Positions 4,053 through 62,164 of a DNA stretch of 64,000 nucleotides are shown one piece after another. Source of the stretch: Azolla caroliniana. Lineage: Eukaryota; Plantae; Polypodiophyta. The notes beneath the pieces are model-generated. The model worked only from the letters and a program-made list of their open reading frames with translations, was not told where the DNA came from and did no database searches. The stretch lies in the NCBI GenBank assembly GCA_043228905.1, contig JBHGNT010000016.1, forward strand, positions 15,314,001 through 15,378,000, in the 5' to 3' direction. Numbering within the stretch: position 1 is the stretch's first letter; each line of letters opens with the position of its first letter. The translations under genes were made by a program, and so were the position numbers.

Positions 4053-4670
4053 TGTTAGGATCTCAGTCCCTCCGGATGGGATACGAAGGCCCAACATCAG
4101 AAGACCCGGTGAGAACCGAATGACGAGTACCCGGCCAGGAAGACCCGGTGAGAACCGGATGTTGCAAGCCTGGTGAGAACCTCTCACCGGATGAAGGGAC
4201 ACATATGTAGATATGTTTCTGAGAGCCCATTGGGGCTATATCTGTAAATAGTCCTAATGTCATATTAGTATAAATGTGACCTAGGGAAAACAGTGTGATG
4301 GGAATCATAGTTGTTGTTATTACCTTTGTATAGTGTGATTGGTGTAATGACTGTACAGAGAGAGAGAGACAGAGACAGAGACAAAGAGAGAGCGATACAG
4401 AGCATGTGTCTATTGTAATCGCCGCCAAGCAAAGATTGTGAGCAAGAGGTCATTGCCTCCATGCTCCCTGTTGTACTCCTTGACATAGTGATAGTTTGGA
4501 GTCTATGGACTCCCATGGTTTTTCCCTCTCAAGGTTTTCCACGCTAACATCTTGTGTATTCTCTTTCTGTTTTTGTACTTACCTCCATTCCCATTTCCTC
4601 TGTGTTTGATTTTCATCAAGTGATCTACGCTTCGGTTGTGGCCGGAGATTAGTCCGCATATTTCACGTCA
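4053..4670 (+). repeat. 3' LTR of copia-1
   Basis: Starts TGTTAGGA after the PPT. Contains U3 short repeats, TATAAAT at ~4269 and an (AG)n tract. Ends ...cacgtca, matching the ...cccgtca end of copia-2. Confidence 0.8.
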
Positions 4671-9030: not shown

Positions 9031-9280
9031 GCTAGGAGGCTTAAGACTGGCGTTGAACCGATTTGGTTCTAAATAATTCCTTGTGCCTCCTTTTATAGTG
9101 TTCTCAGGAGTACTCCTGAAGTTTCTAGAATATTCTAGAGAAATCTGGAATATACATCAATTTTTTATAGTAAAACTTAAATGAAAATAATATCCTTCGT
9201 ATTACAAAACATAGCCTAAGGGTAAGAGCTCGACCCATGTAACATAAGGTCATGGGTTTGAGTCTTGCCATATCATGACA
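9031..9280 (-). repeat. Truncated 3' LTR of chromovirus copy 1
   Basis: Matches 19781-20025; similarity stops at ~9031. Confidence 0.88.
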
Positions 9281-11739: not shown

Positions 11740-12491
11740 TGTTGGGAGACAGGTCCCTCCGGATGGGAAGGGAGAAGAACAGTGCTAACGAACAAACTCC
11801 GGATGGGAAACGGTATGAGGAGTACCCGGCTACGGAGAGCCGGATGATACAGGCCCGGTGTGAACCGGATGAGTAGTACCCGGCTACGGAGAGCCGGATG
11901 ATACAGGCCCGGTGTGAACCGGATGAGTAGTACCCGGCTACGGAGAGCCGGATGGTGCAGGCCCGGTATGAACCGGATGAGGAGTACCCGGCTACGGAGA
12001 GCCGGATGGTGCAGAACCGGTATGAACCGGAGGAAGAGACATATTCGTAAATATGTTTCTGAGAGCCCATTGTGGCTACATTTGTAAATAGCCGAAAAGT
12101 CATATTAGTATAAATATGACTTAGGGCAAACTTTTAAGTTGTGGCTGTCATTTTCTTGTTGATGCAAGAAGAAGAAGAGAGAGCACGTAACATTGTACAG
12201 AGAGAGAGAGAGAAAGAGGTCGTTGCCTCTGTTGTAACCGCCGCCTGTGGCGAAGATCGTGAGCACGAGATCGTTGCCTCCGTGAACTCACTGTTTTGTA
12301 CATTCATACATAGTGACAGTTTGCAGCCTGTGGGCTGCCGTGGTTTTTCCCCCTAGTTTGGGGTTTTCCACGTTAACCTCCTGTGTACCATTTCTCTTCT
12401 TTGTGTCGTGTTCTATTTCCCATTTTCTGTGTATGAAAAGAATCTCGGTTGTGGCCGAGTCTTGCGCATAAGGAACGACAAGTTCCCATCA
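11740..12491 (+). repeat. 5' LTR of copia-2, with four 54-bp U3 tandem repeats
   Basis: Unit agtacccggctacggagagccggatg... starts at 11821, 11875, 11929 and 11983. Confidence 0.95.
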
Positions 12492-12520
12492 AGTGGTATC
12501 AGAGCAAAACGACACAAAAA

Positions 12521-15500
12521 ATGGACGAATCGTTTGGCGGCATGTTCAAGCTCACCAGCTCCAACTATTCAGTGTGGAAGTCGAAGATGAGGGACATGCT
12601 CGTAGTTAAAGACCTCTAGCTGCCGGTTCAGTTCGGGGACAAGAGACCGGACAAAATCGACGCCGCGATATGGGAGGTGATGCACATGAAGACAATGGCG
12701 TACATACGGTGCTTCATCGACATGAGCCTATACAACAACTTCAATGAAGAGAGCAAGGCTCATGAGCTCTGGGAGAAGATCGGCATTATGTTCCAGAACA
12801 AAAATGTTGTCAATCAGGTGTCGGTATTCCAGAAGCTAGTAAGACTCCGGTACCAAGATGGCTCCAGCATGGCGGAGCACATGAATGCCTTCCAGGGGCT
12901 GATACACCAGACAACGTCATTGGAAGTACCTCTTGTCGACGAGGTACTAGCGCTACTCCTGCTCGGTTCCCTCCCAGATAGCTGGGAGACGTTGGTTGTC
13001 ACTTTGGGCAACGCCGGGCCGGAAGGAAAACGGTTATCCCTAGCAAGAGTAAAGTCGAGCTTGCTAGATGAGGAGGCGCGTCTGAAGGATAAAGATACGA
13101 GCTCCGACTCCAAAGCGCTCCTTACCGAATCGGAACGCGGAAGACAAAGAAACCGTAGTCCTCAGAACCGGGAGAAGTCGGGGACACGGTCAAAGTCAAG
13201 GGGGAGACCTACTTGCTTCTATTGCGGCAAGCCGGGACACTTCCAAAAGAACTGTCAGCATTTCCGTAAAGACAAGGAAACCGACGGTACCGATTCGAAG
13301 CAAACCCCGGACCGGAACGGTAAAGACCGGAGGGGGCCGGACCGGAAGGGAACAACGGCAATCGCGGCAAGTGAAGAAGAGTTGATGCTCATCACCGAGG
13401 AGAGTGAGATGAACCTTGCCGGCGACGAGATGACCTGGGTGGTAGACTCCGGAGCGTCGTTCCACCTTACCCCGGACCGGAAATGCTTCTCATCCTACTC
13501 AGCCGGTGACCACGGCTGTGTCTGGATGGGGAATGAAGGTACATGCCGAATTATCGGCATAGGAGACGTGTGGCTGTCAACACCAATAGGATGCAAGTTG
13601 CTGCTGAAGGATGTCCGACACGTTCCGGAGGTTCGTCTGAACCTGATATCAGCCGGTCGGCTAGATGATGAAGGCTACACGGGTAGCATCCGGAACGGTG
13701 TCATGAAGTTCAGCAAAGGGAGCCTGATTGTGGCTCGGGCCCGGAAGGTAAACACACTATACCTGATGAATGCCCGGTTATGTCCGGAAGAAGTGAACGT
13801 GGCATCCAACATTGCCGGTGAGCTGTGGCACAAGAGGCTGTGTCATATGAGCAAGAAGGGGATGAAGAGGCTTGCAGATGACAACCTCATTCCAGTGAAG
13901 ATCGTGCACTTGGAGAAGTGCACTAATTGTCTGGCCGGTAAGCAGAACCGGACCTCCTTTCGATCAAGGCCACCGATGACACGTAATGCACCACTGGAGT
14001 TGGTGCATACGGATGTGTGTCAAGTAGACACGAAGTCACATGCCGGAGCGCAGTACTTCGTGACGTTCATAGATGACCACAGTCGGAAGTTGTGGGCCAC
14101 ACCGTTGAAGACAAAGGATCAGGTGTTATCCGTCTTCAAAGAGCTCCACGCAAGAGTGGAAAGAGAAACCGGCCGGAAGCTGAAGACGGTTCGAGCAGAT
14201 AACAGAGGAGAGTACCGGGGGCAGTTCGAGGAGTACTGCCGCTCGAAGGGAATCCGGCTCGAATTTACCGTGCCGAAGACGCCGGAACTAAACGAACTGG
14301 CCGAGAGGATGAACCGGACCATAATGGAGAGGGTGCGGAGTATGCTAGCACATGCAAAACTACCCAAGAAGTTTTAGGCTGAGGCACTGTCGACGGCGAC
14401 ATATGTGATAAACAGATCACCCTCAGTACCCTTGGACGGAGACACGCCACAGAGAGTATGGACCGGTAAGGAAGTGTCCTACCGGCATCTGAAGGTGTTC
14501 GGGTGTCTCGCGTATGTGCATGTAGCAAAGGACCGGAGAGGGAAGTTAGATCCAAAGACCCGGCCATGCATATTCCTCGGTTACGGTGGCGATGAGTTCG
14601 GCTACCGAGTGTGGGACCCGGTCAACAAGAAGGTATTCCGGAGTCGAGATATTATCTTCATGGAGGACAAGACGCTCGCCGACTGGGAGTCGGAGAAGAA
14701 GATAATGAACTCTGAGTCGACCGGTAAGGATAGACTCTACGATGAGCAGACCCAACCGGTAAGAGACCGGTTAGCACTCAAGGAACTAGCCTGTTACGGT
14801 GAGGATACCGAATCGGCAGAAGAAGAGGTAGAGGAAGCTGAGACCGGAACCGGCCAAGACCCCGAATCGGATTCGGATGAAGAGCAAATGGAGGAGCCGG
14901 TTACCGAAGCCCGAAGACGGAGATATCCTCTCAGAGAGAGAAGGGCGCCCCGGAGATTTCCGGATGCAGAGCATGTTCTGCTAACCGATGAGGGGGAGCT
15001 GGAAAGCTTCGAAGAAGTGAAGGAAGACACCCACAGCCGAAAATGGTTAAGTGCCATGCAGGACGAGATGGATTCCCTGCATGAGAACCATACATACGAA
15101 TTGGTGGAGTTGCCGAAAGGAAAGCGGGCATCCCGAAACAAGTGGGTGTACAAGTTGAAACCGGGAGATGCCGGCAACCCCCCGAGATACAAAGCCAGGA
15201 TTGTGGTGAAGGGGTTCCAGCAGAAGAAGGGCGTGGACTTCGACGAGATATTTGCCCCGGTAGTAAAGATGACCTCCATCCGGACGGTGCTGAGTATAGC
15301 TGCAAGCATGGACCTCGAGGTAGAGCAGCTGTACGTGAAGACGGCATTCCTTCACGGCGACCTCGAAGAGGAGATCTACATGCAGCAACCGGAAGGATTT
15401 GTGGAGAAAGAGAAAGAGCACCTGGTATGCCGGTTGAAGAAGAGCCTATATGGACTGAAGCAGGCTCCCCGGCAATGGTATCGGAAGTTCGACTCCTTCA

Positions 15501-16567
15501 TGACCGATCAAGGGTACCACAAGATGCAGGCCGATCACTGCGTGTTTGTGAAGAAGTTCGAAGGAGGTGACTTCTTAATACTCCTCCTATACGTGGATGA
15601 CATGTTGATCGTCGGACGTGACCAAGTCAAAATATGGATGCTGAAGAAGGCTCTCAACCGGACCTTCTCAATGAAAGACTTGGGTTCGGCAAGACAGATG
15701 TTGGGGATGCACATCATCCGTAACCGGAAAGCGAAGCAATTATGGCTGTCACAGGAGAAGTACGTGACAAAGGTGCTTCACCGGTTCAACATGTCAGAAG
15801 CGAAACCGGTCGGATCGACACTTCCGGTAAACTGCAAGCTATCCGGTAAGCAAAGCCCGAGGACGAAAGCAGAGAAGGCGGATATGATGAAGATCCCATA
15901 TGCCTCTGTCGTCGGAAGCTTGATGTACGCAATGGTTTGTACTCGACCGGACATTGGATACGCAGTCGGAGTGGTGAGCCGGTTTATGAGCAATCCCGGC
16001 AAGGAGCACTGGAACGCGGTCAAGTGGATACTCCGGTATTTGAAGGGCACTTCAAATATGTGTCTCCGATTCGTCTCCGGAAAACCTCAACTGGACGGTT
16101 TCACCGATTCGGACATGTCGGTTGATGTGGATACCAGCCGATCTACATTCGAGTATGTGATGACATATGCAGGGGGAGCTGTTTCGTGGCAGTCGAGGCT
16201 GCAGAAGACGGTTGCATTGTCAACCACAGAGGCGGAGTACATGGCGGTTGTGGAAGCCGGCAAGGAAATATTATGGATGAAGGACTTCATCGGAGAGCTC
16301 GGTATACGGCAAGAGGAATACCGACTCTATTGCGACAGTCAAAGTGCCATCCACCTTGCTAAAAATGCGGCCTACCATTCCCGGACGAAGCATATCCAGC
16401 GGAGGCATCACTGGATCCGGGAAAGAGTAGATGACCAGGAGTTCGCACTGATGAAGATCCACACGGCCGAGAACGGGTCAGATATGCTGACCAAAGTGCT
16501 GACACCCGACAAGCTGGATGCATGCCGGAAGAGAATCGGACTGGTAAGACACCCCATGCCGGAGTGA
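12521..16567 (+). pseudogene. Near-intact copia gag-pol with two premature stops
   Basis: ATG at 12521. In-frame TAG at 12617 and 14375, both at Trp positions. ORFs 12677-14377 and 14405-16567 carry CCHC, DSGA, integrase, YVDD and RNase H. Confidence 0.93.
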
Positions 16568-16577
16568 AGGGGGAGTT

Positions 16578-17215
16578 TGTTGGGAGACAGGTCCCTCCGG
16601 AGTACCCGGCTACGGAGAGCCAGATGATACAGGACCGGTGTGAACCGGATGAATAGTACCCGGCTACGGAGAGCCGGATGATACAGGCCCGGTGTGAACC
16701 GGATGAGTAGTACCCGGCTACGGAGAGCCGGATGGTGCAGAACCGGTATGAACCGGAGGAAGAGACATATTCGTAAATATGTTTTTGAGAGCCCATTGTG
16801 GCTACATTTGTAAATAGCCGAAAAGTCATATTAGTATAAATATGACTTATGGCAAACTTTTAAGTTGTGGCTGTCATTTTCTTGTTGATGCAAGAAGAAG
16901 AAGAGAGAGCACGTAACGTTGTACAGAGAGAGAGAGAAAGAGTTCGTTGCCTCTGTTGTAACCGCCGCCTGTGGCGAAGATCGTGAGCACGAGGTCGTTG
17001 CCTCCGTGAACTCACTGTTTTGTACATTCATACATAGTGACAGTTTGCAGCCTGTGGGCTGCCGTGGTTTTTCCCCCTAGTTTGGGGTTTTCCACGTTAA
17101 CCTCATGTGTACCATTTCTCTTCTTTGTGTCGTGTTCTATTTCCCATTTTCTGTGTATGAAAAGAATCTCGGTTGTGGCCGAGTCTTGCGCATAAGGAAC
17201 GACAAGTTCCCGTCA
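16578..17215 (+). repeat. 3' LTR of copia-2
   Basis: Near-identical to 11740-12491 except one fewer 54-bp unit and a 60-bp deletion. Confidence 0.95.
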
Positions 17216-19577
17216 GAATATATCATTTGTCATGTGTTGGAAGACTATTGGAGCATTAGTGAGGCCGAATGTCATGACCGTATACTCGAAGTGCCCATAT
17301 CTGGTATGAAACGTCGTCTTCCATTCATCTCCTCGTCGGATCTGTACGAGGTTATACGCTCCTCATAAGTCGATCTTTGTGAAGAACCTTGCACCATTGA
17401 TCCGTTCTAAAAGACTTGAGATAAGGGGAAGTGCATACCTATTCCTAATGGTGACTTTATTCAATCCATAATAATCGATGACGAGAGGAAGTGATCCATC
17501 CTTTTTCTTGACGAAGAAAATGGGTGCGTCGGCTGGAGATTTCGAATGTCGAATGAAACCATTTGCTAAATTCTCCTCTATATAGGCTCGAAGCACTTCT
17601 AGCTCGGTTGGTGAAAAATTGTAGATCAGTCCTCATGGAGGCTCTTTTCCCGGTTGTAAATCGATGGGGCAATCATACGGTCGATGGTGAGGAAGCGAAT
17701 TAGCTCTTACTTTATCGAACACATCGGCATAATGACGATACTTCTCTAGAAGTTGAACAATGAACTCCTCTTTATTTATACTGGAGGGGTTTACTGATAT
17801 TGCGAAGAGAAACATTTCTTCCTTGCGTCCTTCCTCACGCAACTGATGTAGCGAAATGGTTGCAATCTTATGAGTAGATCCTCGGGCTTGTCGACACCGT
17901 ATTTCTCTTGTTCTCCAATCTATGGCTGGGTTATGTAATTCGAACCATGGTAATCCCAAAACAATGGGATGTTCTAGGATACTAATTATATTAAATGACA
18001 CTACACACGCTAAGTTATCTAGGACAATATTAACGGGTTCTGACTCTTGTATAATATTCCCGGAAGCAATGGGACAACCATCAATGACTACTATAGAGGT
18101 TGGACATGGGAGTTTCTTTAGGGATATTTGATGAGCTTGGGCAAAATTCCTATCCATGAAGCAAGAGTTGGCTCCGGAATCTAAGAGTGCTAAGACATGT
18201 ACTAGAGGAGTACTTTTAGTACTAACCATTACTTGAGCTAAGAACACATTGCTAACTTGATTAGAGGAAATGGAACCACTAATGGGTTGCACAGATCTAG
18301 GGTTGTCCAACCAAACGGCTCCTATTTTGGCTGAACTTAATCGTTTAACTCTTCTTCTAGTTGACTAAGGATTTCAAATTTGTTTGAAAGGCTTGGGCTA
18401 TTCGGAATATCAGACAAACATAGAGAAATAGACTCGAGTTTAGTATTATTAGTACTAGCGGTTATTTGATTTACCTGCCTTTTTAGCCGATGGGGGCAGT
18501 TCACTGCAATATGCCCTAGTCCACCGCAATAAAGACATAATTGATTTGCCCTATGTTGCTGCTTTTCTTCTTCCGATAGTGGTCCGCGACAACGTGTGGT
18601 GTCGATTTCCATTGGAGTCGAAGTATTTGTTGGAGACGTATTGAATGACTCCCTTGGGAAAGGCTTTGCTATGATTGAAGCATAGGTGGGCTCTGATCTT
18701 GTCCTTGGCATTTGGAACTAACATTCCGAATGTCATTCGAAGAGGCGATTATCGCATCGCACCGCACGATTGATTGCTTCTGTCAATGACTTTGGCTCCT
18801 CAGGGAAAGTTAAGGGTAAATCTTTAACATCATTACGTAGGACAAAACGAAATTGCTCCATTAGTGTCTGGTCATCCTAGGGAATATCGGTGGCGAGAAG
18901 ACAGAAATCTGCAGCATAAGCCGAGGCCGGCCGCTCACCTTGGCACAACCTTCGGATTTTGTTGATTGTTGTTCTAACACCGTCGGTATCTCCAAAACAT
19001 GTTTTAAACTCAGTAATAAACTCTTCGAAATTATTTAACAAGGGAGAGCTTTTTTCTAACAGGGGGGCGAACCATGCCAAAGCCGTGCCACTAAGTAGAG
19101 TGCCTACTAGTCCCACTTGTGATGCATCGATGGGATATCGAGAAGGATGCATTTGAATGACTAATCATATCTGATTAAGGAATCCTCTAAACTGCGATCG
19201 CGTTCCATCGAATTTCATGGCAAGGCCAATCTTGGGTTCTTTATGAATCCCTTGTGTACTGGGTCCTTGGTGTTGCATCACTACTAAGGTTGCTTCGAGT
19301 TGTTGCACGCGTACCACTAGTTCCCCATGTTGTTGTTGCATATGCTGCTTTTCTAAGGAGATTTGTTGAAGATTCCCCAACAACCATTGATTTTCTTGTT
19401 CCAAAGCAAGGAACTTCTCTTTCAAGCATTGCAGCTCTGAGAAAACAGATTGATATTCTTGAGCGCTAACAGTGGCCATAGTATGAGAGAAAACAGGAAT
19501 AAGAGATTAGTATGAAGGGAGGGAGAAGTAAGAAGATAAAGGAAGAGAATGAAAGAGATGAAAAAATCGGTTCAAAC

Positions 19578-20025
19578 TGTCGGGAGTAGTACTAAGACAG
19601 AGAAGTACTGTTAGGAACAGTACTAAAACAAAGAAGGAATTAGTACTAAAAGATGAGGATTAGTACTAAGGGAGGTGTAGAACTCTTGAGAGAAGGAATG
19701 AGTGAGTGAGTGAGTGAGTGAGAGAGAGAATGAGGATAACAAAAGATATATATATTATGTTAAGGGAATATACAATAGTAGCTAGGAGGCTTAAGACTAG
19801 CGTTGAACCGATTTGGTTCGAAATAATGCCTTGTGCCTCCTTTTATAGTGTTCTCAAGAGTACTCCTGAAGTTTCTAGAATGTTCCAAAGAAATCTAAAA
19901 TATACATCAATTTTCTATAGTAAAACTTAAATGAAAATAATATATTTCGTATTACAAAACATAGCCTAATGGTAAGAGCTCGACTAACATAAGGTCATGG
20001 GTTCGAGTCTTGCCATATCATGACA
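19578..20025 (-). repeat. 5' LTR of chromovirus copy 1
   Basis: Reverse complement of 61732-62159 (tgtcatgat...gaca). Confidence 0.92.
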
Positions 20026-45500: not shown

Positions 45501-47758
45501 CCTGCCCCCAATCTGAGCTCTGACGATGACCAGTCCGATGAAGAGTCAGCGAGTAGTGGAGACTCGGCCGTGCATTCCCCGCGCAGGAAGCCGAGGAGAC
45601 GGCTTACACGCAAAGAGAAAGGGAAGAAGAAGGTGTCAGATTCCGGCACGGATAGGAAAGAGTCAGACCGACGTGAGTCCGACTCCAAGGGAACCGGTGA
45701 CGGGTCCTTAAAAGTGAAGTCCGCGTCGATCGAGAAGGCCTCGACATCGGCTAATGCGAGATTACGCCGATCTACCTGCCAGAAGAATCCTGTTTTGCGG
45801 TTCGGATACAACGAGTACATGGCGCATCATTATGCGTACATGACCCGTGTAATGGAAGTGCGTGAGCTGGAGAGCTACGCAGAAGCGGCTAAAGACGTGA
45901 CTTGGCGTGCCGCGATGGAGGAAGAGATGCACGCATTGGCGAAGAACGAGACCTAGGACCTGGTTGACGCACCAAGAGGGGTAAAACCGATCGGGTGTAG
46001 GTGGGTGTACAAAGTCAAGTACAACACCGATGGCTCCGTCAACCGGTACAAGGCTTGGCTAGTGGCAAAGGGCTAGCGCAGAAACACGGCATCGACTACG
46101 ATGAGACATTTGCGCCGGTCGTGAAAATTACGACCGTCCGTGTTTTGCTCGCAGTAGCCGCAGCCAAGGGGTGGCACCTACATCAAATGGATGTAAAGAA
46201 TGCGTTCCTGCAAGGTGACCTTGAGGAACAAGTGTACATGGTACAACCCCCCGGATTTCACTCCGGAACGAACTCCTTGGCAGTATGCTGACTAAAGAAG
46301 TCCCTTTACGGACTGAAGCAAGCCCCGTGTGCCTGGAACGCGAAGATCATGCAACAACTGCGTCGGATGGGCTTCGTCACGTCAAAATCGGACTCTTCCC
46401 TGTTCATCCGGAAAGGTCGACTCGGACCAGTTAGTATTCTACTATATGTCGATGACTTGGTCATCACCGACGCCGACCTAGGTGAAATCGACCGCGTGAA
46501 GCTCCAGCTTGCGGCATCGTTCGACATGAAGGATCTGGGGGACCTTCATTACTTCCTCGGGATCGAAGTGATCCGTACCCCCGAAGGCATATTGATCAGC
46601 CAACGTCATTACGTGCTGGGTATGCTCTTCAAACTCGGGATGGCCGGCTGTAAGTCCGTCTCGACTCCTCTAGACAGAACCATCAAGCTTCGTCCCGATA
46701 CGGGAGAGGTATGCGACCCGACGAGGTTCCGACAAATTGTCGGAAGCCTCATATACTTGACCATCACCCGACCCGACCTCAGTTATCCGGTCGGGGTGAT
46801 CAGTCAGTTCATGGCGCGACCTACCGAGGAGCACCTTCAGTGTGCGCAACGCGTACTGCGGTACGTAAGTGGCACTAAGGACCGCAGACTGCTATATCAG
46901 ACCAGTGTAGCCGCGCAGTTAGTCGGCTACACCGATGTTGATTGGGCTGGCAACGCCGCCGATCTCCGATCCACGTCTGGATACGCGTTCTCCCTCGGGA
47001 GTGCCGCGATCGCGTGGAGCAGTAAGAAGCAGCCGACATTTGCACTGTCGAGCACCGAAGCTGAGTACCGAGGAGCGGCTGTCGCGACATGAGAAGCCAT
47101 ATGGTTGAAGCGGCTCCTTAAGGACCTGCAAGAGGAGGTGTTAGATCCGATGACGATCTACTGCGACAACCTCAGCAGCATCCAGCTCGCGAAGAACCCC
47201 GTTTTCCATGCACGGACCAAGCACATTGAGGTGCACTACCATTTCGTCTGAGAGCGTGTCCTTTCCGGTGAAGTCGAACTTCAGTACGTGCCGACGGATC
47301 GGCAGATTGCCGACATCTTCACCAAGCCTCTTGGTCTGGACAAGTTGCGGCAATTCTCCGGTGCGCTCGGGTTGCGTCACCTCGACGTGCCAAACTTGAG
47401 GGGGAGAACAGTCCTGAATGACCAAGCAAGGCAGCAGGAAAGGAGCGGAGACCGCGACACCGAGTCGGTTGTCGAGTTCGACTTCGGATCGGTTGAAGAA
47501 GCCGAGGGCAGACCCGCGGAAAAGTCCGGAAGCGGACAGAAGGGGAGCAGCCGAAGGAGAGAGCCGAAGCCAACCACGCATGGGGGAGATGACGCCATCA
47601 AGGGCGAGAAGACCGAAGACGAGTTGGAGACAGCCAACTCGGACGAGAGCGAAAACCGATCGGAGGTAGCCGAGTCGGTTCGGATGTTTGATTCAGACAC
47701 GTTGAATCAACCGAGGCCCAAGCGGAAGAAAAGGCAGCAGAAGAAGTGTCGACACCGC

Positions 47759-50489
47759 TGTTGGGAACTCGACGTTCCTTATGTCCGACGCTCGGCCACA
47801 ACCGAGATTCTTTTCATACACAGAAAAACAGGTAATGAAACGCGACACAAAAGAGGAGAAATGGTACACAGGAGGTATACGTGGAAAGCCCCAAAATAGA
47901 GGAAAAACCACGACAGCCCACAAGCTGCAAACTGTCACTATGCAGAAATATACAACAGTGAGATCACTGAGGCAACGACCTCGTGCTCTCAGATCTTCGC
48001 CACAGGCGGCGGTTACAACAGAGGCAACGACCTCGTCTCTCTCTCTCTCTCTCTGTCTCTCTGTACAGTTACGCGCTCTGATTTCTTCTTGCACCAACAA
48101 GGAAGAATAACCACAAAAAAAAACGACAACAACTACCCCGCTAAAAGTTTGCCCTAAGTCATATTTATACTAATATGACTTTTCGGCTATTTACAAATGT
48201 AGCCTCGATGGGCTCCATCCGGCTCTCCGCAGTCGGGTACTCCCCATTTGGTTCATACCGGGCCTACACCATCCGACTCTCCGCAGTCGGGTACTCCCCA
48301 TCCGGCTCTCCGCAGTCGGGTACTCCCCATCTGGTTCATACTGGGCCTACACCATCCGACTCTCCGCAGTCGGGTACTCCCCATCCGGCTCTCCTGTGAC
48401 AGCCATAATTGCTTCACTGACCGGTCCCGAATGATGTGCATCCCCAACATCTGTCTTGCCGGACCCAAGTCCTTCATTGAGAAGGTCCGGTTGAGAGCCT
48501 TCTTCAGCATCCGTATTTTTCCTTGGTCTCGTCCGACGATCAACATGTCATCCACGTACAGGAGGAGTATCAGGAAGTCCCCTCCTTCGAACTTCTTCAC
48601 AAACACGCAGTGATCGGCCTGCGTCTTGTGGTGCCCTTGATCGGTCATGAAGGAGTCGAACTTCCGATACCATTGCCGGGGAGCCTGCTTCAGTCCGTAT
48701 AGGCTCTTCTTCAACCGGCATACCAGGTGCTCCTTCCCTTTCTCCACAAATCCTTCCGGTTGCTGCATGTAGATCTCCTCTTCGAGGTCGCCGTGAAGGA
48801 ATGCCGTCTTCACGTCCAGCTGCTCTACCTCGAGATCCATGCTTGCTGCTATACTCGCTTCTTCAAAGCTTTCCGGCTCCCCCTCATCGGTCAGCAGGAC
48901 ATGCTCTGCATCCGGAAATCTCCGGGGCGCCCTTCTCTCTCTGAGAGGATATCTACGTCTTAGGGCTTCGGTAATCGGTTCCTCCATTTTCTCTTCATCC
49001 GAATCCGATTCGGGGTCTTGACCGGTTCCGGTCTCAGCTTCCTCTACTTCTTCTTCTGCCGGTTCGGTATCCTCACCGTAACCGGCTGGTTCCTCGAGTG
49101 CTAACCGGTCTCTTGCCGGTTGGGTCTGCTCATTGTAGAGTCTATCCTTAACGGTCGACTCGGAGTTCATTATCTTCTTCTCCGACTCCCAGTCGGCGAG
49201 CGTCTTGTCCTCCATGAAGATAATATCTCGACTCCGGAATACCTTCTTGTCGACCGGGTCCCACACTCGGTAGCCGAACTCATCGTCACCGTAACCGAGG
49301 AATATGCATGGCCGGGTCTTTGGATCTAGCTTTCCTCTCCGGTCCTTTGCTACATGCACGTACGCGAGACACCCGAACACCCTCATTCGCTTCTGGAATA
49401 CCGACGCCTGATTGACAACATTTTTGTTCTGGAACATCATGCCGATCTTCTCCCAGAGCTCATGAGCTTTGCTCTCTTCATTGAAGTTGTTGTACAGGCT
49501 CATGTCGATGAAGCACCGTATGTACGCCGTTGTCTTCATGTGCATCACCTCCCATATTGCGGCGTCGATTTTGTCCGGTCTCTTGTCCCTGAACTGAACC
49601 GGCAGCCAGAGGTCTTTAACCAGGAGCATGTCCCTCATCTTCGACTTCCACACTGAATAGTTGGAGCCGGTGAGCTTGAACATGCCGCCAAACGATTCGT
49701 CCATTTTTCTGTGTCGATTTCGCTCTGATACCACTTGTTGGGAACTCGACGTTCCTTATGTCCGACGCTCGGCCACAACCGAGATTCTTTTCATACACAG
49801 AAAAACAGGTAATGAAACGCGACACAAAAGAGGAGAAATGGTACACAGGAGGTATACGTGGAAACCCCAAAATAGAGGAAAAACCACGGCAGCCCACAAG
49901 CTGCAAACTGTCACTATGCAGAAATATACAACAGTGAGATCACTGAGGCAACGACCTCGTGCTCTCAGATCTTCGCCACAGGCGGCGGTTACAACAGAGG
50001 CAACGACCTCGTCTCTCTCTCTCTCTCTCTGTCTCTCTGTACAGTTACGCGCTCTGATTTCTTCTTGCACCAACAAGGAAGAATAACCACAAAAAAAACG
50101 ACAACAACTACCCCGCTAAAAGTTTGCCCTAAGTCATATTTATACTAATATGACTTTTCGGCTATTTACAAATGTAGCCTCGATGGGCTCCATCCGGCTC
50201 TCCGCAGTCGGGTACTCCCCATCCGGCTCTCCGCAGTCGGGTACTCCCCATTTGGTTCATACCGGGCCTACACCATCCGACTCTCCGCAGTCGGGTACTC
50301 CCCATCTGGTTCATACCGGGCCTACACCATCCGACTCTCCGCAGTTGGGTACTCCCCATCCGGCTCTCCGCAGTCGGGTACTCCTCATCCGGTTCATACC
50401 GGGTCGGCCTTGGCCTGTCGGCCTCGGCCGAGTTTGTTCGTCGGCACTGTTCTTCTACCTTCCCATCCAGAGGGACCTGTTTCCCAACA
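47759..50489 (-). mobile_element. Internally deleted copia element (copia-5, family A)
   Basis: TSD ACCGC (47754-47758, 50490-50494). 5' LTR 49736-50489, PBS 49722-49733. 3' LTR 47759-~48393 is fused to RT with no PPT. Confidence 0.95.
48253..49704 (-). CDS. Chimeric in-frame ORF: gag N-terminus, integrase C-terminus/linker, RT core, LTR-repeat tail
   Basis: Stop-free frame from the family gag ATG (MDESFGGMFKL) through FGCLAY and LLYVDD. Expression unknown. Confidence 0.55.
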   Translation of the reverse strand: MDESFGGMFKLTGSNYSVWKSKMRDMLLVKDLWLPVQFRDKRPDKIDAAIWEVMHMKTTAYIRCFIDMSLYNNFNEESKAHELWEKIGMMFQNKNVVNQASVFQKRMRVFGCLAYVHVAKDRRGKLDPKTRPCIFLGYGDDEFGYRVWDPVDKKVFRSRDIIFMEDKTLADWESEKKIMNSESTVKDRLYNEQTQPARDRLALEEPAGYGEDTEPAEEEVEEAETGTGQDPESDSDEEKMEEPITEALRRRYPLRERRAPRRFPDAEHVLLTDEGEPESFEEASIAASMDLEVEQLDVKTAFLHGDLEEEIYMQQPEGFVEKGKEHLVCRLKKSLYGLKQAPRQWYRKFDSFMTDQGHHKTQADHCVFVKKFEGGDFLILLLYVDDMLIVGRDQGKIRMLKKALNRTFSMKDLGPARQMLGMHIIRDRSVKQLWLSQESRMGSTRLRRVGWCRPSMNQMGSTRLRRAGWGVPDCGESDGVGPV

Positions 50490-51255
50490 ACCGCAACAAC
50501 ATAAGAGCTGATAAGGGCCACATGAGCAGACAAGCCGACCGGAAGGGTCGAAGCGCGGGAGTCGAACAGGTCGAGGAGCGCGAGCGAGGCGTGAAGCCAG
50601 GAGGAACCGGAGCTGTGAAGATCCCGAAGAGCCTCAAGTTGAGCTTGAGGGGGAGTGTTGAGAGACAAGCTCAACATCGGCTGGATCGGCTGAAGAAGCC
50701 GAGGACTAGATCGGTTGGGACCGATCGGTTAGGCGGTTAGGAAAGATATTCCGTGAGGAATATATTTGGGAGTTAGTGTAGGAGCTCTTAATGAGCATTG
50801 AAGTACTGTCAGTACTTCGGTCAGTCCTTCTACGACTTGTATAAAAGTGTTCATTGAACACACACATGTAAGAAATATAGAGTCGAGTATTGAGATTGTT
50901 TTTTGGTGGAATACAGTTCTTGTGTTTTCTCTCTCACTCTCTCTGTCTCTCCCGTGTATACTGCGTAAGCTCAAGCTCTCCATTAAACCTGAGTCTTTCT
51001 TCCTTCTGTTCGGTCTTTATACCTGCTTCCGCACGTTATTTTTTACAAAAAGTTTTGAGGGTTTAAAGGTTTAGAGGTTTATCGGTTTATAGGTTTGGTT
51101 TGGTTTTGATTTATGATAAATCGATTTGGTTTGGTTCTAAATTTTTCATGAACGGTTTGGTTTAAATGGCTTCATAAAAATAAAACAGTTTGGTTTGGTT
51201 TGGTTTCAAGACCAAGAAACCGAACTGAACCGAAACCGAACCGCGCCCATTGCTA

Positions 51256-54200: not shown

Positions 54201-55755
54201 GAAATTGAAAAATTCTTTAAGGTTTTGAGTTGAGACTGAAAGAATAACTAGAGCATGATTAGAAAAGGTAGTTCCAGGCATTATATGTTTGTACCAGTTG
54301 TTGAAAGAAATTTGCCAGATAAATAAAATCTATCCAAATGAGATAGATTAGTACCATTTACATGCCTATCTGATCTTGAAAACAAAAGTGAGGTGTTTGT
54401 ACGAACCATCGAAGGACCATGCCAAGCATCTAACATTTGTAAGGAAAACACGAATTGCTCCCACATTGCTAATTCATGGCCATGTATCGTGATTGAGCTA
54501 CCTCCCATTTTATCCATGGGGTCCTCAAGCATGTTGAAATCACCAACGATACACCAATGATCAAGAGGAGGCAAATTATTTAATTAATCTTTCCAAAATT
54601 GTTGTCGAGCAGAGGCTGTATTGGGAGCATATATATTCAAGAGTCCCCATGTAATCTCTCCCTCTAGGATAATAACAAATTGAGCCCTTCTAGGAATAAC
54701 CACTTGTTTTTGGATAATGGATGGAATCCACCTTTGAGAAGTAGCCATACAAACCCCACCACAGACTTCCGTGTTGCCTACTACGGGGGACCAAAACATG
54801 TCCCAATTTCTAGATAGAATAGAACCATAACGAGAAATTCTAAAAGTATTTAAATGACGTTCTTGTATTAAAAGAAAATCCAGGGATCCACCCACTACGC
54901 ATTTGTTAATTGCTTGACGGAGATGATGTTTGTATTGTCTATATAAGGGGTCCCCTAACCCCTGAACATTCCATGACATCACTTGCATTTAAGGAAACTT
55001 AGGTTGCTATGACACCATTTTCATGTTTTTTGCTAATGGTTCCAAATTGACCTCATTGCCATCTTGCTCACCACTTATTGAACATGATAAAGGTATCGCA
55101 TCAGGTATCATTCTATAATGATGATGAGCTTTAGCTAATACTTGCCCTTCCGATAACCCATCTTCATGAATATAGGTATATCCACAATTTGGAAGGATCT
55201 TAGAATCTAAGGAGACAACCACCTGCCTCTGCCCCATCACATCAAACACTGGCAAAAGTTGCATAGTTGCTACCTCAAATCCCCTTAATATTACTTCCCC
55301 AAAATTTTCACAATTAACATATTTCGCGAAATGTAATGTTTGTTGTCTAACAACCAATCGAACATCCGTTGCCACCCCTGTTTATTTATCATATCCACAA
55401 AAGGAAAGGAAAAGCCTACAAGATATTGCGTAGACTTGAAAGGAACATGAACACACATTGATGCAACCCCATTATCAACCATTTCTCCCAAAACTTTCAA
55501 AAACTCAAACCCATTTGTGGCATTCCATCTAGTGACTGCAAAATCACAAGTATTTTCTACTTGAGAGTTTATCCTGATTGTGCGAATGAAGTTCGCATTA
55601 AACCCTGTCAAGCTAGACGATCATTTTATAGATATATGAAATGGTCGAGATGCATTAAGCAAGTTCAAATGTTGTTTACTTGATACCATTGTTGTTTTAC
55701 TCTGAGTGGGCATAATAAGGGTATTGACTAATTCAATCTCTTCTCCACTAAGAAT
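51256..55755 (-). mobile_element. Degenerate L1 LINE body (ORF2 EN-RT and ORF1 end)
   Basis: APE endonuclease (MSWNVQGL at 54988, GDFN, LDRFY), RT (LDFEKAYDRVDW, FVDD, RYLG). Many stops. Confidence 0.92.
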
Positions 55756-56063
55756 TGTCATGACCTTATGTTACATGGGTCGAGCTCTTGACCATTAGAC
55801 TATATGTTGTAATACAAAGGATATTATTTTCATTTAGGTTTTACTATAGAAAATTGATGTATATTCCAGATTTCTCTGGAACATTCTAGAAATTTCAGGA
55901 GTACTCGTGAGAACACTATAAAAGGAGGCACAAGGCATTATTTCGAACCAAATCGGTTCAACGCTAGTCTTAAGCCTCCTAGCTACTATTGTATATTCCC
56001 TTAACATAATATATATCTTTTTTTATCCTCATTCTCTCTCTCTCTCTCTCTCAACTCTCTCAC

Positions 56064-56805
56064 ATTGAATACATGCTTAAGGTTCAAAAAAGTCCCTCGC
56101 ATTGACTTCCTAGAATTGCGTGGGAAGTAAGCAAAAAGATCCAAAAGACGCATAAAAGCAAAATTTTGTGTTCCGGTTGGATGCAAGATATAGAAAAATG
56201 GTTTGGTAGATGGGATGCGAGACACTTGCTTCATGATGCATCATTAGATTCCTCTGTAAATGAGGCCTTTTTGCAACGCCAATGTATCATGACATGGGAC
56301 AAATGTGGAGGCTTGCACTTCACACATTATACTACACATGTTGCACCTAACTACAAAACCATATTCTTTGCGGAACGGGGAAATCGTACACATCGATACA
56401 TGTTAGAGCCCATACTGTTATCTGCCATTCGAATCGTTGCTTCCATGCGACTTAGCTCACATGCATTGTGATGTGAAACAGGGCGTTGGGGCACAAGTGA
56501 TGAGAGTGGTCGACTATGCACACTTTGCCCTAAACAAGTTCGCGAGTCTGAGTATCACACTTTGATACAATACTCTACCTTTGATCATATTCGACCATGC
56601 TTTCCACATCTCTTCGACCGATCCCAAAATTTGCATGAATTCCTCTCACAACCACAATGTGCACTCTCAATTGCAACATTCATTGGTAAAGTTCTTGAAC
56701 ATCGAGAGTCACTACTCACTTTCACATGTATCACGTGAAATGTAATATTTTTGGTCTCATAGGTCATATTTGACCTCTGAAGACGATAATATAATCTATC
56801 TATCT
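56064..56805 (+). mobile_element. 5'-truncated RTEX-like LINE inserted in the chromovirus 5' LTR
   Basis: Absent from the other LTR copies. MRLSSHAL..ETGRW..RLCTLCP..ESEYH motif, (ATCT)n tail, flanked by tctcac direct repeats. Confidence 0.8.
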
Positions 56806-56938
56806 GTCTCACTCTTTCATTCTCTTGAGAGTTCTACACCTCCCTTAATACTAATCTTCATTTTTTAGTACTAATTCCTTCTCTATCTTAGTACTGTTCC
56901 TGACAATACTTCTCTGTCTTAGTAATGCTCCTGACAGT

Positions 56939-56950
56939 TTGAACCGATTT
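56939..56950 (+). promoter_or_regulatory. Self-priming-type PBS (ttgaaccgattt)
   Basis: Starts 2 nt after the LTR end. Exact reverse complement of 55950-55961, which begins 33 nt after TATAAAA at 55917. Also present in copy 1 at ~19564-19575. Confidence 0.8.
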
Positions 56951-58161
56951 TTCTCTCCTTCCTTCTCTTCCTTTATCTTCGTACTTCTCCCTCCCTTCAT
57001 ACTAATCTCTTATTCCTCTTTTCTCTCATACTATGGCCATTGTTAGTGCTCAAGAATATCAATCCGTTTTCTCAAAGTTGCAATGCTTGAAAGAGAAGTT
57101 CCTTGCTTTGGAACAAGAAAATCAACGGTTGTTGGGGGATCTTCATCAAATCTCCTTAGAAAAGCAGCAGAAGCAACAACAACATGGGGAACTAGTGGTA
57201 CGCGTGCAACAACTCGACGCAGCCTTAGTAGCGATGCAACAACAAGGATCCAGTACACAAGGGATTCATAAAGAACCCAAGATCGACCTACCCATGCAAT
57301 TCGATGGAACGCGATTGCAATTTAGAGGATTCCTTAATCAGGTACGATTAGTCATTCAAATGCATCCTTCTCAATATCCCACCCATGCATCACGAGTGGG
57401 ACTAGTAGGCACTCTACTTAGTGGCACAACTTTGCCATGGTTCGCCCACTTGTTAGAAAAAAGCTCTCCCTTGTTAAATAATTTCGAAGAGTTTATTACC
57501 GAGTTTAAAGCCTGTTTTGGAGATACTGACAGTGTTAGAACAACAATCAACAAAATACGAAGATTGCGCCAAGGTGAGTGGCCGACCTCGTCTTATGCTG
57601 CGGATTTCCGTCTTCTCGCCACCGATATTCCCTGGGATGACCAGGCACTAATGGAGCAATTTCGTTTTGGCCTACGTAATGATGTTAAAGATTTATTCTT
57701 AACTTTCCTCGAGGAGCCAAAGTCATTGACACAAGCAATCAGTCGTGTGGTGCGATGCGATAATCGCCTCTACGAATGACGTTCAGAACATCAGTTACAA
57801 ATGCCACGGACAAGATCGGAGCCCACCTACGCTTCAATCGTAGCAAAACCTTTCCCAAGGGAGTCATTCAATACGTCTCCAACAAATGCTCCCACTCCAA
57901 TGGAAATCGACACCACACGTCGCTGCGAACCACTATCGGAAGAAGAAAAGCAGCGACGCAGGGCAAATCGATTATGTCTTTATTGTGGTGGACCGGGGCA
58001 TATTGCAATGAACTGCCCCCATCGCTGAAAAGGCAAGTAAATCAAATAACCGCTAGTACTAATAGTACTAAACCCGAGTCTATTCCTCTAGGTGTGTCTG
58101 ATAGTCCTAATAGCCCAAGCCTTTCAAACAAATTTGAAATCCTTAGTCAACTAGAAGAAGA

Positions 58162-58206
58162 GTTAAACGATTAAGTCTAGCCAAAATAGGAGCCGTTTGG
58201 TTGGAC
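58162..58206 (+). promoter_or_regulatory. Putative -1 ribosomal frameshift signal (G_TTA_AAC plus stem-loop)
   Basis: Lies at the gag/pol overlap; conserved in copy 1 (18305-18349, minus strand). Confidence 0.7.
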
Positions 58207-61200
58207 AACCCTAGATCTGTTCAACCCATTAGTGGTTCCATTTCCTCTAAGCAAGTTAGCAATGTGTTCTTAGCTCAAGTATTGGTTAGTACTAAAAGTA
58301 CTTCTCCAGTACATGTCTTAGAACTCTTAGATTCCAGAGCCAACTCTTGATTCATGGATAGGAATTTTGCCCAAGCTCATCAAATATCCCTAAAGAAACT
58401 CCCATGTCCAGCCTTTGTAGTAGTCATTGATGGTCGTCCCATTGCTTCTGGGAATATTATAGAAGAGTCAAAACCCATTAATATTGTCCTAGATAACTTA
58501 GCGTGTGTAGTATCATTTAATATAATTAGTATCCTAGAACATCCCATTGTTTTGGGATTACCATGGTTTGAATTACATAACCTAGCCATAGATTGGAGAA
58601 CAAGAGAAATACGGTGTCGACAAACCCGAGGATCTACTTGTAAGATTGCAACCATTTCGCTACATCAGTTGCGTGAGGAAGGACGCAAGGAAGAAATGTT
58701 TCTCTTCGCAATATCAGTAAACCCCTCCAGTATCAATAAAGAGGAGTCCACCATTAAACTTCCAGAGAAGTATCGTCATTATGCTGATGTGTTCGATAAA
58801 GTACGAGCTAATACACTTCCTCACCATTAACCGTATGATTGCCCCATCGATTTACAACCGGGAAAAGAGCCACCATGGGAACCGATCTACAATTTGTCAC
58901 CAACCGAGCTAGAAGTCCTTCAAGCATATATAGAGGAGAATTTGGCAAATGGTTTCCTTCGACATTCGAAATCTCCAGCCGGCGCACCCATTTTCTTCAT
59001 CAAGAAAAAGGATGGATCACTTCGTCTCGTCATAGATTACCATGGGTTGAATAAAATCACAATCAGGAATAGGTATGCACTTCCTCTTATCTCAAGTCTT
59101 TTAGAACGGATCAATGATGCAAGGTTCTTCACAAAGATCGACTTACGAGGAGCGTATAATCTCGTACAGATCTGACCAGGAGATAAATGGAAGACTGCGT
59201 TTTGCACCAGATATGGGCACTTCGTTCAGCCTCACTAATGCGCGAGTAGTCTTCCAGCACATGGCAAATGATATATTCCGATATCTCTTGGATGATTTTT
59301 CGATCATCTATTTGGATGATCTACTAGTTTATTCGAAGACCCAAGAAGAACATCATTCTCATGTATTGTTAGTACTAAAACGACTTCGAGAACATGGTCT
59401 TTATGCAAAACTGGAAAAATGTAGTTTCAGGCGCAACCAAGTAGAATTTTTGGGCTATGTCATTTCCTCAGAAGGCATCTCCATGGATCTAACTAAGATC
59501 AAAACGGTGGTAGAGTGGTAGACTCTGCGTTCATTGGGAGATGTGCAATGCTTTTTAGGCTTTGCCAATTTTTACCGCAAGTTCATACAAGATTACTCAA
59601 AGCTTGTTCTGCCTCTCACACAACTTACCAGGAAGGGAAAATCGTTCGTCTGGTCTGAAGAAGCGGACATTGCTTTTGAGAGTCTTAAGAAGGCATTTAC
59701 ATCAGCTCCTATTTTAGCTCATGTTGATCCAAAAAAACCATTCATCATTGAAGCAGACATGTCAGATTTCGCCTTGGGTAGCATTCTGTCTCAACAGGCG
59801 ATGATGAAAAGCTCCATCCTGTGGCTTTCCATTCACGTAAGTTTGACGCCGCGGAAATCAACTATGAAATTCATGATAAGGAGCTATTAGCAATAGTGCA
59901 CTCTTTTACGCAATGGAGGCATTTTCTAGAGGGGTGTTCTCATCAAGTCATCGTATTCAGTGATCACAAAAACCTTGCCTACTTTCAGAATGCTCGTGTG
60001 TTAAATTGACGTCAAGCTCGGTGGGCCCAATTCCTCACTCGTTTCGAATTCAAAATTACATATCTTCTAGGGAAGCAACAAGGGAAGGTAGATGCATTAT
60101 CACGACGTTCGTATCTAGCACCGCGTCCCGGCGAGCCGGCTTTCGATAACCAAAAGCAAGTAATCTTGGGACTGGCACGACTGCAAGCAACGTAGGTCTT
60201 CGGTATGCCCTTGGATTCCCACATTATCGATACCATACGTGAGGACTTGAAGACGGATGTTTTCGCTCAAGCCATTCTAGCACAAATTGATCCCTCTCGA
60301 GTATCTTGTTCACAATCCCAACACCCAAGTACGGATTATCAACAATTCGAATGTCATGATGGATTACTATTCTTTAAGAAACTCTTGTATGTTCCTAATG
60401 ATACTTGTCGCTTTCAAGTAGTCCAAAACTGTCATGACACATATACAGTTGGGCATTTTGGAGTACTAAAACACTAGATTTAGTACAACGATCCTTTTGG
60501 TGGCCCCATATGCGACAATTTGTCGAAGATTTTGTTCGGACTTGTGATACATGTTGTAGAGAAAAAATGCCAAGGCATCATCCATATGGTTTATTAGAAC
60601 CATTACCAATTCCAAGTAAGGCATGGCAATCCATTGCCCTAAATTTCATCATAGATCTTCCGGTCTCTAAGGGATTCGATGCGATCTTAACAGTAGTAGA
60701 TTGATATACGAAGATGGCCCATTTCCTACCATGTACTAAGGAAATCTCCAGTGAAGTAACCGCCAAAATTGTCATGCGTGAAGTATGTCGGCATCATGGC
60801 CTTCCCGATAGTATCATCAGGGACCATGGACCCTAGTTCGTCTCAAAGTTCTGGAAGCACCTCTTTAAAATGCTTAAGTTCACTTGTAACCTCTCCTCCG
60901 GCTACCACCCACAAACAGACGACCAAGCAGAACGAACAAATCAAATGTTGGAGTAGTATCTTTAGTGCTTTTTAAGCTATCATCTAGATGATTGGGTGGA
61001 TATTCTCCACTTCGCCGAATTCGTGTATAATAACTCTGTCCACTCATCGACAAAGGTGACACCATTTTATGCTTACACAGGCTATCACCCCCAATGGTGT
61101 GTATTTGAAACCCCAGAGTTACCCACAAATCCTTGTGTAGAGGATCGTTTGGAGCGGCTACGTAAGATACAAGTGGATTTATCTACTCATCTATAGCAAG

Positions 61201-62164
61201 CTCAATAAACACACAAGGTTTACATGGATCATCATCGGCTTCCATCCACTTTTGACATTGGAGATCGGGTGTGGCTACTGCGACGACACTTCAAGACTAC
61301 TTGCCCATGCGAGAAGTTGGATTACCGGTGATTAGGTCCTTTCCGTATTATTGGAAAAATTAATGATGTCGTTTTTTGTCTCGATCTACCTCCACAACTT
61401 CAGATACATCTGGTGTTTCATAGTTCTCTCCTCAAACCCTATCAAGATAGCACCATCCGAGGTTGTATTAAACAACCTCCATCCCTGATTGAGCTTGAAG
61501 ATGGACCTGAGTACGAGGTTGCCGCCATCTTCGATTCCAAGATTGTTCGCAACAAGCTCTACTATTTAGTCAATTGGCTAGGATATAGTCCCAGTGAACA
61601 TACTTGGGAACTAATAGAGAATGTGACCAATGCTCGTGCTCTTTTTGAAGACTTCCATCGTCAATATCCAAACAAACCTGGTCCTCAATCTAAAACGACT
61701 CGTGACAGTCGTCGTTTTAAAGGGGGGATAGTGTCATGATATGGCAAGACTCGAACCTATGACCTTATGTTACATGGGTCGAGTTCTTGACCATTTGACT
61801 ATATGTTGTAACACAAAAAATATTATTTTCATTTAGGTTTTACTATAGAAAATTGATGTATATTCCAGATTTCTCTAGAACATTCTAGAAACTTTAGGAG
61901 TACTCCTGAGAACACTATAAAAGAAGGCACAAGGCATTATTTCGAACCAAATTCGTTCAACGCCAGTCTTAAGCCTCCTAACTACTATTGTATATTCCCT
62001 GAACATAATATATATCTTTTGTTATCCTCATTCTCTCTCTCTTTCACTCACTCACTCTTTCATTCTCTCAAGAGTTCTACACCTCCCTTAGTACTAATTC
62101 CTTCTCTATCTTAGTATTGTTCCTGGTAGTGCTTCTCTGTCTTAGTACTACTCCTGACAGGAAT

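What the first reader, a model, noticed from the sequence alone, without database searches (positions are those of the whole stretch)
55917..56950. tRNA-independent self-priming signature (Tf1-type) in a plant chromovirus
Seen: after the 5' LTR there is no TGG tRNA PBS. Instead gtTTGAACCGATTT is the exact 12-nt complement of AAATCGGTTCAA (55950-55961), which starts 33 nt after the TATA box, at the expected TSS. Copy 1 has the same pair (19564-19575 and 19803-19814). Known: fission yeast Tf1 primes reverse transcription with its first 11 nt annealed to the PBS and cleaved by RNase H, and the Tf1/sushi group shares this. Inference: this family self-primes, consistent with the fungal-related Tcn1 clade of non-seed plants.
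Basis: partly seen in the sequence, partly recalled or inferred. Interest (0 to 1): 0.7.

Follow-up and report, generated by a model that had tools for sequence, protein, structure and literature searches.

The report
Self-priming plant chromovirus, already predicted kind
Two dead copies of a jumping gene, likely from a seed-free plant, have no tRNA primer site and instead carry a 12-base match to the predicted start of their own RNA, so the family likely primes its own copying as yeast Tf1 does, which is already predicted in print for this group of elements.

Summary
After the 5' LTR (ends CA, 56936) come GT and TTGAACCGATTT (56939-50), the exact complement of 55950-61, 33 nt from the TATA start; the minus-strand copy has the same pair (0 of 20,000 simulated LTRs reach 12 nt). 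The element is a decayed Ty3/gypsy chromovirus with an aromatic-cage chromodomain, overlapping gag/pol and a 5-bp TSD. Relatives settle the covariation test: all 4 close relatives that hold the junction show CA, GT, then a PBS matching their own LTR 31-32 nt after TATA, in different letters (3 exact, 1 with one mismatch). Self-priming is therefore likely, but the TSS was not mapped, two 'pretzel' helper duplexes are weak, and no named Tcn1 or Tf1 was in my tree. It is not new: Neumann 2019 predicts self-priming for 83% of 1,500 plant Tcn1 elements, and this scan reported it twice on other genomes. Side finds: a U3 hairpin that could mask the primer (strong in relatives, weak here) and an antisense tRNA-like A/B-box in U3.

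The parts
55751..55755 (+). 5' target-site duplication AGAAT (3' copy GGAAT at 62160-62164, one mismatch)
55756..56936 (+). 5' LTR of element B (TG...CA), with a ~23-bp deletion near its start and a ~745-bp insertion
55917..55923 (+). TATA box (TATAAAA)
55940..55961 (+). short U3/R inverted repeat (5-bp stem, z about -1.8) whose right arm is the primer
55950..55961 (+). predicted self-primer AAATCGGTTCAA = predicted first 12 nt of the RNA
   Evidence: TSS inferred
56064..56807 (.). foreign high-copy repeat inserted in the CT tract of the 5' LTR; ends approximate; no Pfam hit
56937..56938 (+). 2-nt spacer GT between LTR end and PBS
56939..56950 (+). primer-binding site TTGAACCGATTT
57033..58174 (+). 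gag (Ty3 capsid/Retrotrans_gag, CCHC knuckle), broken
58147..61718 (+). pol in an overlapping frame: protease, RT, RNase H, integrase, SH3, chromodomain; several stops and frameshifts
61719..61728 (+). polypurine tract
61732..62159 (+). 3' LTR of element B; its primer copy differs at 2 of 12 positions; antisense A-box/B-box pair in its first ~75 nt
19578..20025 (-). 5' LTR of element A (copy 1), uninterrupted
19803..19814 (-). predicted self-primer of element A
19564..19575 (-). PBS of element A, after CA and GT
19962..20010 (+). tRNA-like A-box/B-box pair, antisense to element A, in U3
9031..9280 (-). truncated 3' LTR of element A, with an intact primer copy (9053-9064)
11740..17213 (+). Copia element nested in the RT of element A; TGG-type PBS (internal control)

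Best explanation
These are two decayed copies of a Ty3/gypsy chromovirus, likely of the plant Tcn1 branch of the Tf1/sushi group, whose RNA is predicted to start at 55950 and likely primes its own reverse transcription. Shown: the LTR/PBS complement, its fixed register (CA, 2 nt, PBS; primer 31-37 nt after TATA) and its family-specific covariation. Inferred by analogy with Tf1: Pol II starts at the C|A step 33 nt after TATA; nt 1-12 fold back on the PBS; the RNase H domain of RT cuts after nt 12; RT extends that 3' end through the 2-nt spacer, U5 and R; the strong-stop DNA jumps to the 3' R; the PPT primes the plus strand. Because the plus strand copies the primer, PBS and primer would be kept matched at each cycle. 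Neither copy here can run the cycle alone: both have broken pol, A is split by a Copia, and B has an insertion in its 5' LTR.
For: Exact 12-nt complement, far beyond chance. Folding from 55950/19814 gives the duplex with mean pair probability 0.92-0.93 in both copies (MFE z -7.2 for copy A). Of 6 fetched loci in the well-supported clade that holds element B (99.2/100), 4 carry the LTR-PBS junction: L003 (12 nt, 3 compensated changes), L082 (12 nt, 6 changes), L006 (11 nt, 6 changes in 12 columns) are exact; L007 matches its own 3' LTR at 10 of 11, read by eye. Each PBS matches only its own family's LTR: 10-12 nt against 3-7 nt for other families (9 x 9 table). A scan of all 158 loci gave 12 with offset 2 and a TATA 31-37 nt upstream. 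Four Copia elements in the window have TGG PBSs, so a tRNA PBS would have been seen. Chromodomain keeps the three cage aromatics when aligned to HP1; gag and pol overlap; TSD 5 bp; these are the Tcn1 traits in PMC6317226. Tf1 mechanism as summarised in PMC7175516 and PMC5341516 (passages).
Against: No TSS data: the 9 runs found are all contigs, not raw reads. The two helper duplexes of the Tf1 'pretzel' are weak here: 5 bp upstream of the PBS, no better than shuffles (0.50, 0.32); 5 bp downstream, reached by 2-2.5% of shuffles. No named Tcn1, PpatensLTR or Tf1 sequence was available for the tree, and the link to named fish/amphibian elements is moderate (88.9/93; 0.57). The primer's last 7 nt look like a tRNA T-arm, and 3 of 9 viral loci with the primer plus T-stem pattern are tRNA genes. 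No host tRNA set could be tested. The primer would be 12 nt, not 11 as in Tf1.
Confidence: 0.88

Rival explanations
1. A host tRNA fragment ending in the T-loop is the primer, and the LTR match is incidental or a relic.
For: The primer ends in GGTTCAA, a T-arm/B-box sequence; tRNA genes with the same 12 nt exist in phage contigs (3 of 9 loci). Half-tRNA priming exists in Copia lineages (PMC6317226).
Against: PBSs of relatives lose the T-arm likeness yet still match their own LTR. The half-tRNA primers named in PMC6317226 are confined to Ty1/copia; that they end in the anticodon arm, not the T-loop, is recalled. It does not explain the fixed distance from TATA.
Confidence: 0.05
2. The pairing is real but structural (closing a leader domain for packaging or translation control), with priming by another route or from an RNA that starts elsewhere.
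For: The duplex dominates the predicted leader fold; TSS unmapped; in Tf2 most transcripts start downstream of the primer in unstressed wild-type cells (PMC5341516 passages); Novikova 2010 found neither priming mode in SM-Tcn1.
Against: The 3' arm always begins exactly 2 nt after the LTR's CA, where a minus-strand primer must end; no other PBS is present; the same geometry is proven priming in Tf1.
Confidence: 0.05
3. Chance complement in an AT-rich LTR.
For: The two copies in the window are not independent (92% identical).
Against: 0 of 20,000 and 10 of 20,000 simulations; covariation across families.
Confidence: 0.01

Closest known systems
Plant Tcn1-clade chromoviruses (REXdb; Neumann et al. 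2019, PMC6317226: passages and Additional file 5 read; Additional file 1 too large to read)
   Same: No tRNA PBS; LTR complement of 10 nt or more starting 0-5 nt after the 5' LTR (their criterion; 83% of 1,500 elements); 5-bp TSD; gag and pol in overlapping frames; chromodomain with aromatic cage; length about 5.7 kb without the insert (their range 5.5-9.4 kb).
   Different: Whether this family is among the 1,500 could not be checked. Their set is moss and club-moss; other AI notes on this genome suggest a fern (not tested here), and Tcn1 in ferns is already stated in PMC13477047 (one passage), though Novikova 2010 found none by PCR (section 7).
Tf1/Tf2 of Schizosaccharomyces pombe, Tj1, Tosmo (Tf1/sushi group; PMC7175516, PMC4600332, PMC5341516, bioRxiv 10.1101/2022.12.06.519325: passages)
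   Same: PBS next to the 5' LTR complementary to the predicted RNA 5' end; chromodomain integrase; RNase H present.
   Different: 12-nt rather than 11-nt duplex; helper duplexes of the three-duplex 'pretzel' weak or unresolved; two overlapping ORFs rather than the single ORF of Tf1; nothing shown by experiment. Levin's primary papers were not held.
Helenus/TRIMp3 (Kojima 2024, PMC10886601: abstract and passages), for the side observation only
   Same: tRNA-like sequence inside an LTR.
   Different: Helenus is non-autonomous, tRNA-primed and thought to use the tRNA-like part as its promoter; here the A/B-box pair is antisense in U3 of a protein-coding element with a TATA promoter.

Membership tests
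Ty3/gypsy chromovirus | gag, PR, RT, RH, INT order with C-terminal chromodomain, LTRs TG...CA, PPT, TSD | tested here: met
Plant Tcn1 clade | Group I chromodomain with aromatic cage | tested here: met
   Y, W and Y align with the HP1 cage positions; also occurs in Chlamyvir and Galadriel, so necessary, not sufficient
Plant Tcn1 clade | No tRNA PBS; self-complement of 10 nt or more starting 0-5 nt after the 5' LTR | tested here: met
   12 nt at offset 2
Plant Tcn1 clade | gag and pol in overlapping frames; 5-bp TSD; 5.5-9.4 kb | tested here: met
Plant Tcn1 clade | RT-RH-INT monophyly with named Tcn1, PpatensLTR, SM-Tcn1 | tested here: inconclusive
   No named reference obtainable. Element B falls outside the clade holding the tRNA-Met-PBS loci L105 and L113 (99/100) and next to fish/amphibian chromodomain elements (88.9/93)
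Plant Tcn1 clade | Host is a seed-free plant | not testable with these tools
   No genome held; nearest proteins unnamed; plant-type Copia neighbours only
Tf1/sushi self-priming elements | Primer is the capped 5' end of the RNA | not testable with these tools
   Only contigs available; spacing from TATA is consistent
Tf1/sushi self-priming elements | Three-duplex 'pretzel' leader | tested here: inconclusive
   Central duplex strong; flanking duplexes 5 bp each, one not above shuffles, one at 2-2.5%
Tf1/sushi self-priming elements | RNase H cleavage releases the primer | not testable with these tools
   RNase H domain present; activity needs experiment
tRNA-primed plant chromoviruses (Tekay, Reina, CRM, Galadriel) | TGG PBS for tRNA-Met within 0-5 nt of the LTR | tested here: not met

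The most novel reading that the evidence does not exclude
In this plant lineage priming is gated by where the RNA starts: a U3 inverted repeat between TATA and primer folds over any primer copy that has U3 in front of it (the copy at the RNA's 3' end, or a read-through RNA), so only the capped 5' copy can reach the PBS; and some families add an antisense tRNA-derived Pol III cassette in U3 that acts as a working promoter or boundary. The mask is strong in relatives (pairing falls from above 0.85 to 0.13 or less in 3 of 10 leaders) but weak in the window's own family.
Probability: 0.2. Interest if true: 0.5.

Novelty: new member of a known kind. Interest (0 to 1): 0.2.

Why it matters
Little at the level of the headline: self-priming is already the predicted norm for plant Tcn1 elements and was used as an argument for their horizontal origin from fungi (PMC6317226). 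What this adds is a clean covariation series across related families and exact primer coordinates. I found no experimental test of self-priming in a plant element among the 5 papers listed or the 13 listed, so mapping the RNA 5' end and strong-stop DNA in an active relative would turn a prediction into a result; these dead copies are not the ones to test.

Tried and rejected
No whole genome held, so no host tRNA scan or copy census. Three protein searches and two cluster look-ups gave no named moss, fern or fungal relative. Sequencing runs are contigs only; no TSS, strand or expression can be read; the absence of variant rows at the primer in run X1 is not proof because 74 and 260 rows were hidden. 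In one search my LTR ends were mis-called for 4 of 18 loci (L005, L007, L056, L063) and off by one for element B; 8 of the 18 gave only an 8-nt match near the LTR end with no TATA, a distant family that I left out of the covariation count. In one search, 6 of 158 loci gave hits of other geometry, treated as chance or repeats; most loci lack the junction. I expected tRNA structure to forbid the primer's 12 nt in a T-arm; two searches showed such tRNAs exist, so that argument was dropped. ARAGORN and Rfam do not call the U3 A/B-box stretch a tRNA. Literature searches for the exact 12-mers, for tRNA-like LTRs in moss and for a primer-masking hairpin (listing only) returned nothing on point. The supplement listing individual Tcn1 primers could not be read and may already hold this family.

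Full report
Observation. The sequence is as described. TATAAAA starts at 55917 and AAATCGGTTCAA at 55950. Its exact complement lies at 56939-56950, after the LTR's terminal CA (56936) and a GT spacer. No TGG follows the LTR. Copy 1 (element A) lies on the minus strand with the same pair. In Markov-resampled LTRs, 0 of 20,000 (copy A) and 10 of 20,000 (the longer LTR of this copy) reached 12 nt. The copies are about 92% identical, so they count once.

Anatomy. Element B runs 55756-62159 with a 5-bp TSD bearing one mismatch, a PPT at 61719-61728, gag, and pol in an overlapping frame with protease, RT, RNase H, integrase, SH3 and chromodomain. The chromodomain keeps the aromatic cage. Both copies are dead: stops and frameshifts in pol, LTR divergence 0.06-0.09, a Copia nested in A's RT, A's 3' LTR truncated. 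Folding still predicts the duplex across the insertion (0.93).

Pol relatives were fetched from three collections (158 loci). An RT-RH tree places B in a clade with 6 loci (0.965 in the 177-row tree; 99.2/100 in a 32-row subset that I chose). Four of the 6 hold the LTR-PBS junction. L003 (79% RT-RH identity) has a 12-nt pair with 3 compensated changes; L082 (66%) a 12-nt pair and L006 (61%) an 11-nt pair, each differing from the window's PBS at 6 of 12 columns; L007 (63%), a decayed copy, matches at 10 of 11. All have CA, GT, PBS and a primer 31-32 nt after TATA. More distant loci (L012, L040, L053, L060, L093 and others; 12 of 158 in all) show the same register. In a 9 x 9 cross-test each PBS matches its own family's LTR over 10-12 nt and other families' over 3-7; these 9 were chosen because they had a match, so the unbiased count is the 4 of 4 above. 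Part of this covariation is expected from the mechanism itself, since the plus strand copies the primer (inference).

Controls and rivals. Four Copia elements in the window have ordinary TGG PBSs. The primer's end resembles a tRNA T-arm, and tRNAs with the same 12 nt exist in phages (3 of 9 loci), so a tRNA fragment is not excluded by sequence alone; but relatives lose the likeness and keep the self-match. The host's tRNAs could not be scanned. The TSS could not be mapped, since all 9 runs are contigs. That 33 nt from TATA and a C|A step suit a plant Pol II start is recalled knowledge. The two helper duplexes of the Tf1 'pretzel' (described) are weak here.

Mechanism. Most likely (0.88) the family self-primes as Tf1 does: RNA nt 1-12 pair with the PBS, RNase H cuts after them, RT extends through the spacer and U5 (Tf1 facts from PMC7175516 and PMC5341516, passages; primary papers not held). 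Shown: complement, register, covariation. Inferred: start site, cleavage, priming.

Comparison with what is known. Neumann et al. 2019 state that most plant Tcn1 elements lack a tRNA PBS and are predicted to self-prime (passages), 83% of 1,500 (Additional file 5). This element meets their criterion and every Tcn1 trait tested; the one defining test left open is monophyly with named references, because no named Tcn1 or Tf1 protein was returned. B lies outside the clade of tRNA-Met-PBS loci and beside fish/amphibian chromodomain elements. The host is not identified by my calls; other AI notes on this genome say likely fern (unchecked), and Tcn1 in ferns is in print (PMC13477047, one passage). 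This scan reported the same thing twice on other genomes.

Side observations. (1) In 6 of 16 LTRs folded, the stretch between TATA and the primer forms a strong hairpin (z -2.9 to -7.1), in four of them with half or more of the primer in the stem; in the window's family it is a 5-bp stem (z about -1.8). Adding 25 nt of U3 abolishes predicted primer-PBS pairing in 3 of 10 leaders (L082, L006, L093) but not in copy A (0.94) and only partly in B (0.67). This would mask the 3' copy of the primer; two earlier notes, seen after this test, propose the same for fungal elements. (2) The first ~75 nt of U3 carry, antisense, an A-box/B-box pair at tRNA spacing: 1-3 mismatches in three window LTRs and 2 in L003, against 5-8 in 8 other relatives and 1 of 984 background windows at 3 or fewer (box consensus recalled). 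ARAGORN and Rfam do not call it. It is probably a tRNA or SINE relic; function untested. (3) One depth-3.5 contig in run X2 joins U3 plus primer to what looks like antisense U5 exactly at the 12-mer; a library chimera explains it equally well.

Verdict. Real, correctly read, and a new member of a kind already predicted in print. Interest 0.2.

Noticed in passing
window 19962-20010 (+), ~9210-9265 (+), ~61745-61801 (-); L003 ~4230-4300 (-): tRNA-like A-box/B-box pair at tRNA spacing, antisense in the first ~75 nt of U3 of this autonomous element and of L003; not called by ARAGORN or Rfam; deleted in part in the 5' LTR of element B.
   Followed up: partly
window 55940-55961; L082 110-139, L006 1969-1996, L004, L007, L002, L042: Inverted repeat between TATA and self-primer, family-specific in sequence, predicted to mask any primer copy preceded by U3; strong in 6 of 16 LTRs, weak in the window's family.
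   Followed up: partly
window ~56064-56807: Unclassified ~745-bp non-coding repeat, high-copy in runs X1, X6 and X2, ending in a short simple repeat and inserted in a CT microsatellite; no terminal inverted repeat seen, no Pfam hit in 7 ORFs.
   Followed up: partly
run X2, record 12, laid on window 19803-19885: Single 201-nt contig (depth 3.5) that appears to fold back exactly at the primer/PBS 12-mer; could be mispriming, a genomic inversion or a library chimera.
   Followed up: no
window 11740-17213, 30614-36418, 42775-51047, 47759-50489: Four Copia elements with TGG PBSs, two of them nested in other elements; the one at 12620-16567 has long open frames.
   Followed up: partly
L011, L013, L020, L021, L024, L041, L055, L067: A distant chromovirus family whose PBS (offset 2) matches 8 nt, more with a bulge, about 80 nt before the LTR end with no TATA nearby: a different self-priming geometry or a U5 stem.
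   Followed up: no
L003 4200-4646, L006 1851-2120: Contigs in which two internal regions share one LTR (tandem elements or collapsed assemblies).
   Followed up: no
window 24231-25379 (-): 382-codon Asn/Ser/His-rich open frame with no Pfam match, possibly an exon of a host gene.
   Followed up: no
L082-L158: Many bacterial and archaeal genome bins hold eukaryote-type Ty3/gypsy pol contigs, most likely binning contamination.
   Followed up: no
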